DNA from: Planctomycetota bacterium
GTDB taxonomy: Bacteria > Planctomycetota > UBA8742 > JACQVU01 > JANLHZ01
Length of the DNA: 64,000 bases
Assembly (NCBI GenBank): GCA_024653775.1
Contig: JANLHZ010000268.1
Span: 3,555 to 67,554 of the forward strand
Direction of reading: 5' to 3'
Of the stretch, positions 17,016-21,112 are shown one piece after another; position 1 is the first letter of the stretch, and each line of letters opens with the position of its first letter. A program made the position numbers and the translations under genes. The notes under the pieces are model-generated. The model had not been told where the DNA came from and ran no database searches. It was given only the letters and a program-made list of their open reading frames with translations.

Positions 17016-17086
17016 GAAAACCAGATTTTGTTAACCTATGTTGAAATACATTCTAGGCATTCATAAATTCAACCCGGGAGGCGGGT

Positions 17087-17908
17087 TTGAGCGCGTGGCA
17101 ACCATTAAAATATATAAGGTATGAAGGTTGCGTCGAGTCCAGCACGGGCGTTGCCATCATCTTGACCGACGCTGGCAAAGCGTACCTGAAGCCCCTCGGA
17201 AACAATGAAGGTCCACACGCGCTTGCCAGAGAGTTCGTCGGAACGTCGCTTGCGCATTGGTTCGGACTTAAGACCCTTGACTTCTCGATAATCCAGATTG
17301 CAGCGGGTTATTGCGCGGAAATCGAGCTTGGAAATAGAAAGGTCGCGGAACCGGGTTCTGCTTTTGTTACTCGGGCTACTAATGGGCTCCAGTGGGAGGG
17401 CTATAAGGATGAACTTGAAGCCCTCGACAACCCCGAGGACATTTCTCGGCTCGTTGTTTTCGACTCCTGGATTCGAAATTATGATAGGTACTCTCCAGAC
17501 AAGAACAGAAAACCGAACTACGGGAACGTGTTCCTTAGCAAGGAGAACACAGAGACCGGGAAATTGATCCTGCTTGCCATCGACCATACCCACTGTTTCA
17601 TGCAGGGGGGTGAAATGAACAAGGAGATCGCCCATATTGACGCTTACCGGGATGATAACGTTTATGGACTTTTTCCAGAATTTGCTCCGTATATGCGGCG
17701 CGATGTTGTGCTCGAATCGCTTAACAAATTGTCTGAAGTTGATAAGGCTATGGCGGATAGCATAATCGAAAAAATACCTCAGGATTGGGAAGTGAGCGCC
17801 GAAGTACGAGGAGCCTGGGGAAATTTTGTCCGGGATCGCGCGCATTATCTAACCGGGACGTTGATAAAGCGTTTAGAGGCTAATCTGGGTCCAAGGCTCT
17901 TTTTTTGA
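17087..17908 (+). CDS. HipA-like small Ser/Thr kinase-fold protein
   Basis: VFDSWIRNYDRY...N resembles the HipA catalytic loop (F-D-x-x-I-x-N-x-D-R-H-x-x-N). IDHTHCF could be the Mg-binding Asp motif. Low-GC cassette. Confidence 0.55.
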   Translation: MSAWQPLKYIRYEGCVESSTGVAIILTDAGKAYLKPLGNNEGPHALAREFVGTSLAHWFGLKTLDFSIIQIAAGYCAEIELGNRKVAEPGSAFVTRATNGLQWEGYKDELEALDNPEDISRLVVFDSWIRNYDRYSPDKNRKPNYGNVFLSKENTETGKLILLAIDHTHCFMQGGEMNKEIAHIDAYRDDNVYGLFPEFAPYMRRDVVLESLNKLSEVDKAMADSIIEKIPQDWEVSAEVRGAWGNFVRDRAHYLTGTLIKRLEANLGPRLFF

Positions 17909-17932
17909 TATACTATAGCGAGAGAGGAAACA

Positions 17933-18703
17933 ATGGCTGACACAAACGGTTACTACTCGCTCATTCAGTTCTGCCCCGACCGAGCGAGAGCGGAAACAAT
18001 AAATGTTGGAGTGGCTCTATTCTGTCCCGAGCAAGCGTTTCTTGATTCAAAGTTTTGCGGAAGTAACAAGAAAATCAAAAACGTCTTTGGTTTCGAAGGT
18101 TACGATATTTCGCGCATCAATGAGACAAAAAAAAATGTGCAGTTGAGGATCAAGAAAGAAGCCGCATACATAAAAAACAAATCGGATTTCGCGAGATTCG
18201 CGGGATCGCTAGGCAATGAATTACTGATGACAGCGCCCCGTCATCTGCTTACCGAAAATCCCGAAATAGAATTGGGAAGCCTTTTCAATGAACTTGTAGG
18301 CGGCAAGCCGAAAAAGCCGCATGCACCGCCTGCTTCTCCGGGACTGGATGAGTGCTTTCAGGAGCTTTCAGCGCAGCACCGCGCGAAGCTGCGCCATCCT
18401 GTGGTAGTGCCCAAATTAGAAATAACGATCGAGGTTCCTTATGCGTATAAAAATGGAAAGTGGAATTATGTGAAACCGCAGAAATTCCAGCGCAGTGACC
18501 CGGCGATGCGGCTAGCTGTCGAAGGAGACCTTCTCCGAAAGTATGCAGACAACGCAAATCTTATCGTTATCCCGAGCTTCGAAGACTCGCAAATCAAAAG
18601 TAGCGTGCTTTACCTTTTTAAGGAATACAATGTTGAAACCGTTCTCGAAGACGAGATCGACGATTTCATCGCTCGCGTGAAGAAAGAAGCTCACGCGTCC
18701 TAA
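17933..18703 (+). CDS. DUF3037-like protein, conserved partner of HipA-like kinases
   Basis: N-terminal YYSLIQFCPDRARAETINVGVALF resembles the DUF3037 N-terminus as I recall it. Tightly linked, same strand and same low GC as the upstream kinase-like gene. Confidence 0.5.
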   Translation: MADTNGYYSLIQFCPDRARAETINVGVALFCPEQAFLDSKFCGSNKKIKNVFGFEGYDISRINETKKNVQLRIKKEAAYIKNKSDFARFAGSLGNELLMTAPRHLLTENPEIELGSLFNELVGGKPKKPHAPPASPGLDECFQELSAQHRAKLRHPVVVPKLEITIEVPYAYKNGKWNYVKPQKFQRSDPAMRLAVEGDLLRKYADNANLIVIPSFEDSQIKSSVLYLFKEYNVETVLEDEIDDFIARVKKEAHAS

Positions 18704-21112
18704 TCATTTTCCATTCGTCGCGCGGGGGAGGGAATTCGCGACAGAAAGCACTCGCTCGCTCTCTTCGAGCCACGAAAGCACCTCTTCGTCCGTCGATTTC
18801 CGCGAGCCGAGAACTTTCCTTCGCTTCTTGAGGGATTTCCGCGCGTCGAGAAGCCCTTTCGCGACCCCGCCGAAGTAGCTTACCGCGAGCCCCGGATTTT
18901 TCGTGTGCCGCGCGAACTCGATCAGCGGGCGAAGCGCGATCGACCCGAAGTTCTTCCAGAACACCTTTCGCGGCACGTTTTTCACGACGAGATTCACCCA
19001 GTTCCTGCCGAGCAGGTACACCGTCTCCGGCGTGTACTGTTTGCCGTAGGTCGAGTGGCCTACGTGTTCGACGATCGCGTCCCGCACGAAAACGACCTCC
19101 CAGCCGAGGTGGCGCGCGCGGAACGAAAGATCGACGTCTTCGAGGTATGCGAAAAAGTCCTCGTCGAAACCACCTGTATCCTCGATGACTTCCCTTCTGT
19201 AAAGCGCCGCGCAGGCGCTCGCGCCGAAGACCGTGTGCCACGGATGGCCGTTCGTCTGCCAGAATGGAGTGTCTGTCAACTCGACCTTCCTTCCGTGTCC
19301 GATCTGGAACGGATACATCCCGCGGGTCAGTCCGTCGCCCGCGCTCTGGAGCGTATTCATGTCGAGGAACTCGACCACCCGGCTCGCGCACACGCCGACG
19401 TGCTCGTCCTCGTCCATCGGCTTGCGCAGGTTCGATAGCCATGACGGCGACGGTTTCGCGTCCGCGTTCAGAACCGCGATGTACGCGCCGTTCGCATCTT
19501 TGATGCCCGCGTTGACGTTCCCCGCGAAGCCGCGGTTCTCCGGCAGCGCGATAACATGCACCCACGGGTAGCTTTCCTCTAGCATCTGCGTGGTTTCGTC
19601 TTTGGAGCCGCCATCGACGACGATGACTTCGAAACTCTTGTCGTCGCTCTCTTCGAGTCCGATCAGGCAGCGGATAATGTGCTCGCGCGAGTTCCACGCG
19701 GGGATGATGACGCTCGTCTGGCACGCCGTCTTTCGGATAGCGCCCTTACGTTTCCGCGTCCGGCAGTGTTCCGCAAAAATCTTCGTGGCGTCCGCGACGA
19801 AGTCCTCGATCTCTTTCGACGTAAGTTCGTCGGTGCTGACGACCGCGCTGTGGAATCCGTCGAACTTCGAGAAATCGTCCGTCGACAGCCGACCTTCGTC
19901 CTGCATCTGCTCGTAGAGCTTCGAGCCGGGAAACGGCGTGGCGATCGAGAATTGCAGCGTGTCCGGATTCAGCTCCAGCGCGAGATCGAGCGTCTGCTGC
20001 ATGCTGCCTCGCGTCTCTCCGGGAAGGCCGAAGATGAACGTCAGGTGCAGGCGGATGCCGAGTTCGTGACAGAGCGCCACCGACCTTCGCACCTTGCCCA
20101 GATCGAGACGTTTGCCGACGTCGTCTACTATGTTCTGATCCGCGCTTTCGACGCCGAACTTGAGTGCGCGCAGTCCCGCCGCGTGCATCCTGCGTAGGGT
20201 TTCCTCGTCGCTCGTGTCGGCGCGCGCCATCACGGCCCACGGAATATTGAGGTTTCGCTTCTCAAGCTCTTCGCAGAGCGCGTACATCCTCGGCTTGCCA
20301 ATATTGAACGTGTCGTCGTCGAAATACACGCTCTGGACGCCATGTTCCTTCACGCAATGCTCGATTTCGTCGACTACGTCCTTAGGCGAGCGCACGCGGT
20401 ATTTGTTGTTGCCGTAGACCACCTGCGGGAACACGCAGAACGTGCAGGTGTACGGACAGCCGCGGCTGGTCCACATCTGTAGGCTCGGCGCGGGGATCCC
20501 GCCCGGCTCGTCGTGGTAGCGATCCATCTTCAAATCCCGGCGCATAGGCCAGGGAAGCTCGTCGAGCTGGTTGATCGTTTCGCGCCGGCCGGTACTCTGG
20601 CTGGCGCCGTTTTTGTCGCGGTAGAGAAGTCCGCCGACCTGCGAAAAGTCGCCATCGTTTGCGAGCGCTTTCAGCGCGTCGCGCAGGATATATTCGTACT
20701 CCCCGATCATCACGAAATCCGTCTCGGGCGTGCGATCGAGGAATTCGATGTTGTACATCTCCGCATGCAGCCCGGCGAAGAACATCTTCGCGTCGGGAAG
20801 CATCGCGCGCGCCTTCCTAGCGACCTGGATGTCGACGCCATAGCTCGGCGTGCTGACCTCCATCACGATCACGTCGGGCGAGAACGCCTTCATCCTCCTC
20901 AGGAACTCGCTTTCGCTTACATCTTCCGCGATGGCGTCGACCATCAGCGTTTTGTGGCCCTCTTTCTCAGCGACCGCCTGCGCGTACGCCATGAAGAACG
21001 GAAACGGCATGTAGTTCGCCGTGTCGTCCTCTAGGTGCGGCCATCTGCTCCCGGCGCGGACCCCGTAGAGTCCCTTCTGCCGCCAGGGTGCGTTTCCGAA
21101 GAATACTTTCAT
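18704..21112 (-). CDS. B12-binding radical SAM domain fused to glycosyltransferase family 2 domain
   Basis: N-terminal cobalamin-binding region followed by a radical SAM CxxxCxxC (GCPYTCTFC). C-terminal half VIIPAWNSREHI...VVDGGSKDET is a GT2 signature. Confidence 0.8.
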   Translation of the reverse strand: MKVFFGNAPWRQKGLYGVRAGSRWPHLEDDTANYMPFPFFMAYAQAVAEKEGHKTLMVDAIAEDVSESEFLRRMKAFSPDVIVMEVSTPSYGVDIQVARKARAMLPDAKMFFAGLHAEMYNIEFLDRTPETDFVMIGEYEYILRDALKALANDGDFSQVGGLLYRDKNGASQSTGRRETINQLDELPWPMRRDLKMDRYHDEPGGIPAPSLQMWTSRGCPYTCTFCVFPQVVYGNNKYRVRSPKDVVDEIEHCVKEHGVQSVYFDDDTFNIGKPRMYALCEELEKRNLNIPWAVMARADTSDEETLRRMHAAGLRALKFGVESADQNIVDDVGKRLDLGKVRRSVALCHELGIRLHLTFIFGLPGETRGSMQQTLDLALELNPDTLQFSIATPFPGSKLYEQMQDEGRLSTDDFSKFDGFHSAVVSTDELTSKEIEDFVADATKIFAEHCRTRKRKGAIRKTACQTSVIIPAWNSREHIIRCLIGLEESDDKSFEVIVVDGGSKDETTQMLEESYPWVHVIALPENRGFAGNVNAGIKDANGAYIAVLNADAKPSPSWLSNLRKPMDEDEHVGVCASRVVEFLDMNTLQSAGDGLTRGMYPFQIGHGRKVELTDTPFWQTNGHPWHTVFGASACAALYRREVIEDTGGFDEDFFAYLEDVDLSFRARHLGWEVVFVRDAIVEHVGHSTYGKQYTPETVYLLGRNWVNLVVKNVPRKVFWKNFGSIALRPLIEFARHTKNPGLAVSYFGGVAKGLLDARKSLKKRRKVLGSRKSTDEEVLSWLEESERVLSVANSLPRATNGK

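What the first reader, a model, noticed from the sequence alone, without database searches (positions are those of the whole stretch)
17016..18707. Low-GC HipA-like kinase + DUF3037 two-gene cassette inserted at the 3' end of the rSAM/GT2 gene
A 273-aa protein carries a HipA-type catalytic loop (FDSWIRNYDRY..N, then IDHTHCF) and is followed 24 nt later by a 256-aa DUF3037-like protein. Both are in AT-richer DNA and flanked by the 104-bp direct repeat. My recollection, held with moderate confidence, is that a HipA-like family is specifically associated with DUF3037, a conserved pair of unknown function. The context argues for a mobile toxin-antitoxin or defence-like module.
Basis: partly seen in the sequence, partly recalled or inferred. 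Interest (0 to 1): 0.6.

Follow-up and report, generated by a model that had tools for sequence, protein, structure and literature searches.

The report
Kinase–DUF3037 phage-defence cassette insertion
A two-gene toxin–antitoxin-type anti-phage module (a HipA-like kinase and its DUF3037 partner), of a kind already validated in E. coli, sits as a foreign low-GC insert at the end of a housekeeping gene of an uncultured Planctomycete; the pair is ordinary, but the duplicated gene end around it suggests that such cassettes spread by homologous recombination.

Summary
ORF 17087-17908 is a Pfam HipA_2 kinase. ORF 17933-18703, 24 nt downstream, is a DUF3037 protein. The 1,692-bp insert has 47.7% GC against about 60% in the flanks, and lies between two 104-nt direct repeats with one mismatch. 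The right repeat is the 3' end of the intact rSAM/B12/GT2 gene.

The pair is not new. It is a distant member (22-29% identity in profile alignments) of the HipA_2/DUF3037 system known as PADLOC PDC-M66, DS-6 or HipAD. Relatives were shown in 2025-26 to protect against phage, with the kinase as toxin and DUF3037 as neutraliser. The catalytic Asp is conserved, and 69 of 70 related loci have the same gene order.

The more interesting part is the repeat. The window holds two more cassettes flanked by 133-134-nt duplicated gene ends, plus a TA-like pair flanked by foreign acs-3' fragments. Unrelated metagenome contigs show the same structure, some as arrays. Repeat borders fall at start or stop codons, and differences between the copies are mostly synonymous (39:22, P = 3e-11). 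The copies are therefore diverged alleles rather than in-situ duplications. This favours single-crossover homologous recombination through a carried "homology handle". That step is inferred, not shown.

The parts
16899..17015 (-). Orphan copy of the 3' end of the rSAM/GT2 gene. The left direct repeat is 16912-17015. The fragment reads ...PRATNGNGAH* with its own stop at 16899-16901.
17016..17086 (+). 5' spacer of the cassette, 71 nt and AT-rich. It holds a sigma-70-like match TTGAAA-17-TAAATT at 17041-17069 and the RBS GGGAGG at 17076-17081.
   Evidence: consensus matches only
17087..17908 (+). HipA_2-family Ser/Thr-type kinase, 273 aa, the presumed toxin/effector. Conserved K35, catalytic D133 (NYDR), N147 and metal-binding D166 (IDHTH).
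17933..18703 (+). DUF3037 protein, 256 aa, the presumed antitoxin/sensor. It has an N-terminal DUF3037 domain (1-121) and a C-terminal restriction-endonuclease-like alpha-beta-beta-beta-alpha-beta domain (136-256) that lacks conserved catalytic residues.
18708..18811 (-). Right direct repeat: the last 35 codons of the intact host gene. The host stop codon (18704-18706) abuts the DUF3037 stop codon (18701-18703).
18704..21112 (-). Host gene encoding a B12-binding radical-SAM + GT2 glycosyltransferase fusion (802 aa). It carries a cassette at each end.

Best explanation
What it is. The locus is a horizontally acquired two-gene operon of the HipA_2 kinase / DUF3037 type (PADLOC PDC-M66 = DS-6 = HipAD).

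How it most likely works (inferred from homologues). It probably acts as a toxin-antitoxin-like abortive-infection system. The 273-aa kinase is an intrinsically toxic Ser/Thr kinase of the HipA / CtkA / PI4K-like fold. The 256-aa DUF3037 protein binds and silences it, and may also bind DNA through its nuclease-like C-terminal domain. Phage infection would relieve the inhibition. The kinase would then phosphorylate an essential host target (unknown for this family; aminoacyl-tRNA synthetases in HipA/HipT) and stop growth before the phage completes its cycle.

What is shown here. Family membership, gene order, an intact catalytic site, foreign composition, and a defence-rich context in relatives.

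What is inferred. Toxicity, neutralisation, the trigger and the target.

How it got there (inferred, about 55% confident). The cassette most likely entered as circular DNA that also carried a fragment of the rSAM/GT2 gene end. It integrated by a single RecA-type crossover with the resident gene (insertion-duplication). That leaves one intact gene and one orphan copy of its end. The same route explains the other repeat-flanked cassettes in the window and in unrelated contigs.
For: Family membership. Pfam HipA_2 and DUF3037 match above the curated cut-offs. PADLOC matches PDC-M66A and PDC-M66B. Profile-profile alignment to the experimentally validated E. coli DS-6A and DS-6B gives probabilities of 96.9% and 96.8%, E 2e-10 each (sequences from the supplement of PMC13092281). 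DS-6A D139, whose mutation abolishes defence, aligns with D133 here.

Structure. The AF2 model of the kinase has pLDDT 95.5. Its best PDB fold matches are actin-fragmin kinase, PI4KII-alpha, CtkA, HipA and HipT.

Association and context. DUF3037 lies directly downstream in 69 of 70 loci. Relatives sit beside MmeI or type I restriction-modification genes, HigB and an integrase, or are embedded between hsdS and hsdM. Six further relatives lie on IMG/VR viral contigs.

Published function. Kinase deletion abolishes defence and DUF3037 deletion is toxic (PMC12548924). AlphaFold3 predicts a DS-6A/DS-6B complex (PMC13092281).

Foreign origin. GC is 0.477 against about 0.60.

Insertion route.
- The flanking 104-nt repeat is highly significant (E 1e-47).
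- The same architecture recurs at 20979-22070 and 33842-34743 in the window, and in contigs L063, L067 and L045.
- The repeats share no motif and form no hairpin.
- Seven repeat pairs were scored for substitutions and an eighth (the short third asnS copy in L067) was examined for its borders only. In 6 of the 8, the repeat border lies within 1 nt of a start or stop codon.
- Differences between the copies in the 7 scored pairs are 39 synonymous to 22 non-synonymous, pN/pS 0.18. The binomial P is 3e-11 against neutrality and 4e-6 against a model with one neutral copy. For the window's three events alone the ratio is 6:3, P 0.008.
- An acs 3' fragment attached to another TA-like pair at 45014-45190 differs from the resident acs by 13 synonymous and 2 non-synonymous changes.
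Against: Nothing in this locus was tested experimentally.

Identity to the validated E. coli proteins is only about 22-29%. The PADLOC kinase hit is weak (E 1.7e-6).

The C-terminal half of the DUF3037 protein has no Pfam match. The weak DUF1829 signature reported for DS-6B was not recovered. The kinase target and the phage trigger are unknown for the whole family.

For the insertion route: no empty site, no circular form and no close relative of the host could be found. The substitution statistic is carried mainly by two metagenome contigs, and the repeat of this cassette has only one mismatch. Gene conversion between copies could blur the signal. The model does not explain how the first cassette-plus-handle circle arose. 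It also does not explain why the last ORF of a cassette so often ends within 4 nt of the repeat.
Confidence: 0.75

Rival explanations
1. The pair is a purely selfish addiction (post-segregational killing) module, or a stress/persistence toxin-antitoxin system like canonical hipBA, with no role against phage in this host.
For: The kinase fold is related to HipA and HipT. Deleting DUF3037 is toxic in a homologue, which is plain TA behaviour. The other repeat-flanked cassettes in the window are classic TA pairs: DUF433/PIN-like and DUF4258.
Against: Two independent homologous systems protected E. coli against phage in a kinase-dependent way. Relatives sit next to or inside restriction-modification loci and on viral contigs. 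Addiction and defence are not mutually exclusive.
Confidence: 0.12
2. The 104-nt repeat is a target-site duplication made in situ. It would arise either from an unknown transposition-like process with widely staggered cuts, or from replication template switching (MMBIR-like) that copied the cassette from foreign DNA and re-entered the chromosome 104 nt behind the break.
For: The repeat is nearly identical (1 mismatch in 104). Repeat lengths vary from 75 to 415 nt between events, as expected for an imprecise process. The targets are unrelated genes. A one-step origin is parsimonious for a cassette whose GC content is still foreign.
Against: The insert has no terminal inverted repeats and no transposase or recombinase gene. 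An in-situ duplication would not be expected to stop at start or stop codons, yet 6 of 8 borders do. Differences between copies should be near neutral if one copy has been a dead fragment since the duplication, but they are strongly synonymous-biased. In L067 the first 28 nt after the ATG differ mainly at third codon positions, while homology stops exactly at the ATG.
Confidence: 0.2
3. The repeat-cassette-repeat structure is a metagenome assembly artefact that joins two strain variants.
For: The window comes from a MAG contig. Repeats are a known source of misassembly.
Against: The copies differ by point substitutions. The orphan copy continues into a different, in-frame C-terminal tail and its own stop codon. 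The same architecture appears three to four times in this contig and in independent assemblies from other projects.
Confidence: 0.03
4. The kinase is a non-toxic signalling or small-molecule kinase, and DUF3037 is its regulator or substrate, with no growth-arrest function.
For: The closest solved folds include lipid and actin-fragmin kinases and the secreted CtkA. The substrate is unknown.
Against: Deleting the partner in a homologue is toxic, and defence needs the catalytic Asp. The cassette-like distribution in defence contexts is not what a housekeeping signalling pair shows.
Confidence: 0.05

Closest known systems
DS-6 / HipAD of E. coli (DeWeirdt, Mahoney & Laub, Science 2026, PMC13092281; Brenes & Laub, Cell Host Microbe 2025, cited there)
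   Same: Same two Pfam families (HipA_2 kinase, DUF3037 partner). Same gene order with the kinase first. Similar sizes (249/275 aa against 273/256 aa). The catalytic Asp is conserved. Profile-level homology covers most of both proteins.
   Different: Only about 22-29% identity. The host is a Planctomycete rather than an enterobacterial prophage. The partner's C-terminal domain gives no DUF1829 signal. Nothing was tested here.
PADLOC candidate system PDC-M66
   Same: Both proteins hit the PDC-M66A and PDC-M66B models. Relatives are embedded between hsdS and hsdM, the kind of context in which embedded candidates were collected.
   Different: PDC-M66 is a bioinformatic candidate definition. The kinase hit here is weak (E 1.7e-6).
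HipA/DUF3037 pair inside the Retron-Sda1 operon (PLoS Biol 2025, PMC12548924)
   Same: The same pair works as a stand-alone defence, with the kinase required and loss of DUF3037 toxic.
   Different: There is no reverse transcriptase or retron ncRNA here. Rfam finds nothing in the window.
Canonical HipBA and HipBST kinase toxin-antitoxin systems
   Same: Related kinase fold and catalytic motif (Foldseek matches to 2wiu, 3dnv, 7ab4, 8ezr). The likely logic is the same: growth arrest by phosphorylation.
   Different: The kinase is much shorter than HipA and gives no HipA_N or HipA_C Pfam match. There is no HTH antitoxin (HipB), and no HipS-like fold was detected in the partner. The neutraliser is encoded downstream.
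Insertion-duplication (Campbell-type) integration of circular DNA; compare integron cassettes, pdif modules and integrase-borne islands that carry a gene's 3' end
   Same: A small cassette is bounded by direct repeats, an intact target gene is regenerated, and cassettes can accumulate as arrays separated by repeat copies (L067, L045).
   Different: There is no recombinase gene, no conserved site and no hairpin. The repeat is simply a piece of whichever host gene is adjacent. [quoted passage not shown]

Membership tests
HipA_2 kinase / DUF3037 defence pair (DS-6, HipAD, PDC-M66) | The first protein belongs to Pfam HipA_2 (PF20613). | tested here: met
   58 bits against a cut-off of 27, E 1.1e-15. 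All 120 listed homologues carry PF20613.
HipA_2 kinase / DUF3037 defence pair (DS-6, HipAD, PDC-M66) | The second protein carries an N-terminal DUF3037 domain (PF11236). | tested here: met
   55.2 bits against a cut-off of 22.6, residues 8-122.
HipA_2 kinase / DUF3037 defence pair (DS-6, HipAD, PDC-M66) | The two genes are adjacent on the same strand, with the kinase upstream. | tested here: met
   The gap is 24 nt. The same arrangement is found in 69 of 70 related loci and in DS-6.
HipA_2 kinase / DUF3037 defence pair (DS-6, HipAD, PDC-M66) | The catalytic Asp needed for defence (DS-6A D139) and the metal-binding Asp are present. | tested here: met
   D133 (NYDR) aligns with D139 (NADR), and D166 aligns with D164. 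Both are invariant among 42 homologues.
HipA_2 kinase / DUF3037 defence pair (DS-6, HipAD, PDC-M66) | Detectable homology to the experimentally validated proteins. | tested here: met
   hhalign probabilities are 96.9% (kinase) and 96.8% (partner), E 2e-10 each. PADLOC PDC-M66A gives E 1.7e-6 and PDC-M66B gives 8.5e-15.
HipA_2 kinase / DUF3037 defence pair (DS-6, HipAD, PDC-M66) | The partner's C-terminal domain is equivalent to that of DS-6B, which was reported as a weak DUF1829 match. | tested here: inconclusive
HipA_2 kinase / DUF3037 defence pair (DS-6, HipAD, PDC-M66) | Kinase toxicity, neutralisation by DUF3037, and protection against phage. | not testable with these tools
   These are known only for homologues (PMC12548924, PMC13092281).
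Canonical HipBA type II toxin-antitoxin | A HipA-type kinase with HipA_N and HipA_C domains. | tested here: not met
   Only HipA_2 is matched. The protein is 273 aa. The fold is related, with TM 0.44-0.49 to HipA.
Canonical HipBA type II toxin-antitoxin | An upstream HTH antitoxin (HipB), or a HipS-like antitoxin. | tested here: not met
   There is no ORF between the repeat and the kinase. The partner lies downstream and shows no HTH or HipS-like match.
Site-specific integrative element, integron cassette or dif module | A recombinase gene in the element, or a conserved recombination site or hairpin in the repeats. | tested here: not met
   The insert holds only the two genes. Repeats from 7 events share no 10-mer beyond homologous hsdM ends. 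Folding z-scores range from -1.0 to 0.
Transposon or insertion sequence | Terminal inverted repeats, a transposase, and a short target duplication. | tested here: not met
   There are no inverted repeats at 17016 and 18707. There is no transposase ORF. The duplication is 104 nt.

The most novel reading that the evidence does not exclude
Small defence and toxin-antitoxin cassettes, this one included, may move between related genomes as RecA-dependent 'homology-handle' units. Each circular cassette would carry a fragment of a conserved host gene. It would integrate by a single crossover into the orthologous gene of the next host, regenerating an intact gene and leaving an orphan gene end. It could accumulate with others as integron-like arrays at both ends of housekeeping genes, with no dedicated recombinase. 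This would be a general, so far unformalised route for spreading defence genes outside classical mobile elements.
Probability: 0.35. Interest if true: 0.65.

Novelty: new member of a known kind. Interest (0 to 1): 0.4.

Why it matters
The pair itself adds a deep-branching Planctomycete member to a defence family that was validated only recently and only in Proteobacteria. It shows that the two-domain architecture of the DUF3037 partner is conserved: an N-terminal DUF3037 domain and a nuclease-like C-terminal domain without catalytic residues.

The wider value lies in the flanks. How small defence and TA modules reach 'ordinary' chromosomal sites without integrases or transposases is an open question. 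Here, several independent cassettes are bounded by duplicated ends of host genes, and the two copies of each end differ as diverged functional alleles do. That gives a concrete, testable model: homologous single-crossover integration through a carried gene fragment. It also gives a simple sequence signature by which more cases can be mined, namely an orphan gene end with synonymous-biased differences from the intact gene.

Tried and rejected
Empty site.
- A genome-contig scan with the host rSAM/GT2 protein found only relatives of 48% identity or less, with no synteny.
- An exact-pattern scan of metagenome contigs for the reconstructed uninterrupted junction found nothing.
- Look-ups of the exact kinase and of the MBL protein found no other contig.
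- A protein search with the host gene again found nothing closer than 48%.
- Presence/absence polymorphism therefore could not be tested.

Literature. Four searches for descriptions of TA or defence cassettes flanked by duplicated gene ends found nothing in the held library. Pandey & Gerdes 2005 and Mine et al. 2009 are not held. One search for 'HipAD' returned only unrelated papers.

Other negative results.
- A HipS-like or HTH antitoxin fold in the DUF3037 protein was not seen.
- No solved structure of the family was found by sequence.
- NCBIfam has no model for either protein.
- Rfam finds no RNA family anywhere in the window.
- An att/attC-like motif or hairpin in the repeats was rejected.
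- Repeats around the pair in L001 and L003 are absent, so the repeat is not an obligatory part of the system.
- The L045 126-nt 'repeat' around the pair is probably the internal conserved-region repeat of hsdS, and was not counted as an insertion signature.

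
Full report
**1. The observation.**

- ORF 17087-17908 (+) has a TTG start preceded by GGGAGG and encodes 273 aa. ORF 17933-18703 (+) encodes 256 aa. They are 24 nt apart.
- The first matches Pfam HipA_2 (PF20613; 58 bits, cut-off 27). The second matches DUF3037 (PF11236; 55.2 bits, cut-off 22.6), over its N-terminal 122 residues only.
- A 104-nt direct repeat with one mismatch lies at 16912-17015 and 18708-18811 (BLAST E 1.4e-47) and brackets a 1,692-bp insert.
- The insert has 47.7% G+C. The surrounding genes have 59-62%.
- The right repeat encodes the last 35 codons of the intact 802-aa B12-binding radical-SAM/GT2 gene on the minus strand. 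That gene's stop codon directly abuts the stop codon of the DUF3037 gene.
- The left repeat is an orphan copy that continues in frame into a different tail (...NGNGAH* instead of ...NGK*). It has its own stop codon 15 nt from the end of the convergent MBL-fold gene.
- The ancestral arrangement was therefore MBL gene and rSAM/GT2 gene tail to tail, and the cassette was inserted between them.

**2. What the two genes are.**

The window comes from an NCBI MAG labelled Planctomycetes bacterium (locus tag NUW37_16140, contig of 68.5 kb).

Homologues.
- The nearest homologues of the kinase are 50% identical and those of the partner 43% identical. Both sets are full length.
- A profile of the partner finds 2,576 clusters at 50% identity among 1.84 billion representatives. 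The family is moderately large.

Kinase.
- K35, D126, N131, D133, R134, N147 and D166 are invariant among 42 kinases.
- The AlphaFold2 model is confident (pLDDT 95.5, pTM 0.93).
- Its best matches among solved structures are actin-fragmin kinase, PI4KII-alpha, Helicobacter CtkA (TM about 0.6), HipA and HipT. This is the HipA/PI3-4-kinase-like branch of the protein-kinase fold.

Partner.
- The model has pLDDT 91.3 and two domains joined by a low-confidence linker.
- The alpha-beta-beta-beta-alpha-beta topology of residues 136-231 fits that fold.
- No acidic or lysine residue of that domain is invariant, so it is probably not a nuclease.
- It has no Pfam match.

**3. It is a known system.**

PADLOC models PDC-M66A and PDC-M66B match the two proteins. 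Two papers characterise homologues.
- In the Retron-Sda1 operon, the HipA-like kinase and DUF3037 form a stand-alone defence. Deleting the kinase abolishes protection and deleting DUF3037 is toxic. [quoted passage not shown]
- In E. coli, DS-6 (renamed HipAD, first reported by Brenes & Laub 2025) protects against phage. The kinase mutant D139A loses defence, and AlphaFold3 predicts a kinase-partner-DNA complex (PMC13092281).

Using the DS-6 sequences from that paper's supplement, profile-profile alignment gives 96.9% and 96.8% probability (E 2e-10) for the kinase and the partner. D139 of DS-6A aligns with D133 here.

My own neighbourhood sample agrees.
- Of 88 loci fetched from metagenomes, viral contigs and genomes, 70 have at least 500 nt downstream of the kinase.
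- In 69 of these a DUF3037 gene follows directly on the same strand. The single exception has a frameshifted kinase followed by DUF3037.
- Contexts include HigB/M78 plus an MmeI-type enzyme, a type I restriction-modification system with an integrase, and insertion between hsdS and hsdM.

**4. How it most likely works.**

This is by homology and is not shown for this locus.
- The kinase is the toxic effector.
- The DUF3037 protein holds it inactive. It may also bind DNA through its nuclease-like domain, for autoregulation or sensing.
- Infection releases the kinase, which phosphorylates an essential target and aborts the infection. The target is unknown for HipA_2 kinases.
- A promoter-like site in the cassette's own 71-nt leader (17041-17069), and a weak hairpin/T-run plus promoter-like site between the two genes (17887-17934), are consensus matches only. 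They would fit autonomous expression with extra antitoxin transcription.

**5. The repeat is part of a wider pattern.**

In the window.
- The 5' end of the same rSAM/GT2 gene is duplicated (20979-21112 and 21937-22070; 134 nt, 97.8%) around a DUF433 + DUF5615/PIN-like pair.
- The 3' end of the acetyl-CoA synthetase gene is duplicated (33842-33974 and 34611-34743; 133 nt, 97%) around a DUF4258 pair, with a further degenerate copy at 34494-34546.
- A foreign acs 3' fragment (45014-45190, 85% identical to the resident gene) and a 47-nt piece of it flank a nucleotidyltransferase-like pair that is not next to any acs gene.

Among 46 HipA_2/DUF3037 loci with usable flanks.
- L067 has a 272-nt repeat (99.6%) of the 3' end of an asparaginyl-tRNA-synthetase-like gene around the pair.
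  - This is followed by HicB-HicA, a third 75-nt copy, and then DUF433-PIN. It is an array of cassettes separated by copies of the gene end.
  - The 5' end of the same gene is also duplicated, over about 415 nt, around a DUF488-containing insert.
- L063 has a 231-nt repeat of the 5' end of hsdM.
- L045 has the pair followed by an 82-nt hsdM 5' copy, another gene, and then intact hsdM.

**6. What the repeats tell about mechanism.**

The inserts carry no recombinase or transposase and have no terminal inverted repeats. The repeats share no motif and do not fold better than shuffled sequence. Classical site-specific or transpositional routes are therefore unsupported. Two regularities point elsewhere.
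- First, the repeat border on the gene-end side lies within 1 nt of the start or stop codon of the target gene in 6 of 8 events. The seven scored pairs below, plus the short third asnS copy in L067, make up these eight.
  - In L067, similarity between the two 5' copies begins exactly at the ATG. The first 28 nt differ mainly at third codon positions.
- Second, across seven repeat pairs the differences between copies are 39 synonymous and 22 non-synonymous (pN/pS 0.18).
  - The binomial P is 3e-11 against neutral expectation, and 4e-6 against a model in which one copy has drifted neutrally since duplication.
  - The result holds without the largest contributor (21:8, P 2e-8). The three window events alone give 6:3 (P 0.008).
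  - The stray acs fragment differs from the resident gene by 13 synonymous and 2 non-synonymous changes.

The two copies thus look like alleles that diverged while both were parts of working genes, and not like a fresh duplication of which one half has decayed.

The simplest reading is insertion-duplication. An incoming circular DNA carries the cassette next to a fragment of the donor's copy of the gene. It recombines once with the resident gene. Similarity ends at the ORF boundary because the non-coding flanks of donor and recipient differ. Recombination between the repeats would release the circle again.

This reading is an inference.
- It does not explain how the first cassette-plus-handle arose.
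- It does not explain why the last ORF of the cassette ends within 4 nt of, or inside, the repeat in 5 of 8 cases.
- For the cassette in question the repeat has only one (synonymous) mismatch, apart from the changed tail codons.
- An in-situ duplication by staggered breakage or template switching remains possible (about 20%).

**7. What could not be done.**

No uninterrupted version of the site, no circular junction and no close relative of the host lineage is available in any collection searched. I found no description of this repeat pattern in the held literature. From memory, long direct repeats around chromosomal TA loci were noted in Nitrosomonas europaea and for ccdO157 in E. coli. I could not verify either.

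**8. Verdict.**

- The gene pair is a distant new member of an already known and validated defence family, so it is ordinary by current knowledge.
- The flanking gene-end duplication, seen here as one of several cases with allele-like divergence between copies, is the part that deserves follow-up.
- Overall interest is 0.4.

Noticed in passing
window 20979-22081: The 5' end of the same rSAM/GT2 gene is duplicated: 134 nt at 97.8%, ending exactly at the ATG at 21112/22070. The duplication flanks a DUF433 (21332-21598) + DUF5615/PIN-like (21599-21952) pair. The PIN gene's last five codons and its stop lie inside the right repeat. The host gene is thus decorated with a cassette at both ends.
   Followed up: partly
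window 33842-34743: The 3' end of the acetyl-CoA synthetase gene (34609-36633, minus strand) is duplicated (133 nt, 97%) around a DUF4258 gene (about 34488-34195) and a 74-aa gene (34198-33974). A further degenerate 53-nt copy lies at 34494-34546, suggesting more than one insertion event.
   Followed up: partly
window 45014-45911: An orphan acs 3' fragment (45014-45190), 85% identical to the resident acs with 13 synonymous and 2 non-synonymous differences, and a 47-nt piece of it (45865-45911) flank a 69-aa + nucleotidyltransferase-like (DUF2204/DUF6036-type) pair. The locus is about 10 kb from the acs gene and next to a transglutaminase-like gene.
   Followed up: partly
L067 1908-9229: An asparaginyl-tRNA-synthetase-like gene has a duplication of about 415 nt at its 5' end around an insert with a 262-aa gene and two DUF488 genes. 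At its 3' end is an array: HipA_2-DUF3037, a 272-nt gene-end copy, HicB-HicA, a 75-nt copy, then DUF433-PIN.
   Followed up: partly
L045 4682-9940 and L063 1723-7347: HipA_2-DUF3037 is embedded between hsdS and hsdM of type I restriction-modification operons. In L063, hsdM starts 2 nt after the DUF3037 stop codon (possible translational coupling), and a 231-nt orphan hsdM 5' copy lies upstream. In L045, a second cassette (a 375-aa gene) follows, bounded by an 82-nt hsdM 5' repeat that starts at the ATG.
   Followed up: partly
L035 3486-3791 and 6120-6425: A 306-nt direct repeat (95%) corresponds to part of the DUF3037 gene itself. It probably marks the remnant of a second, tandem HipA_2-DUF3037 cassette upstream.
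   Followed up: no
window 6863-8973, 46145-47026, 48317-49806, 58299-59591: Further low-GC islands (44-48% GC) carry defence-like genes: an AAA_21/AbiEii-type ATPase (410 aa) with a Phd/YefM-like small gene nearby; an AbiJ_NTD4 protein (293 aa); an AAA_15/AAA_21 ATPase (336 aa) plus a 160-aa partner; and an AAA_14/DUF4143 ATPase (430 aa). No flanking repeat of 40 nt or more was seen around these.
   Followed up: partly
window 24324-24368, 37616-37650, 37782-37824, 60266-60297, 60342-60374: A family of AT-rich intergenic repeats built from AATTAATAATTAA(C)AATTAA units occurs at least five times, in both orientations. Its function is unknown.
   Followed up: no
window 15688-15796, 3108-3144, 54621-54649: Near-perfect AT-rich palindromes lie in intergenic DNA. 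The largest (arms of about 54 nt, centred near 15742) sits in a 36-44% GC gap between the transglutaminase-like and MBL-fold genes.
   Followed up: no
window 17887-17934: A weak hairpin with a T-run lies at the end of the kinase gene, and a promoter-like site (TTGATA-18-AACAAT) lies just before the DUF3037 start. This could allow separate transcription of the presumed antitoxin. These are consensus matches only.
   Followed up: no
window 52329-53172: Two tandem paralogous VOC/glyoxalase-like genes (138 and 130 aa) account for the 117-nt, 74%-identical repeat at 52331/52770. This is an ordinary gene duplication and not a cassette signature.
   Followed up: partly
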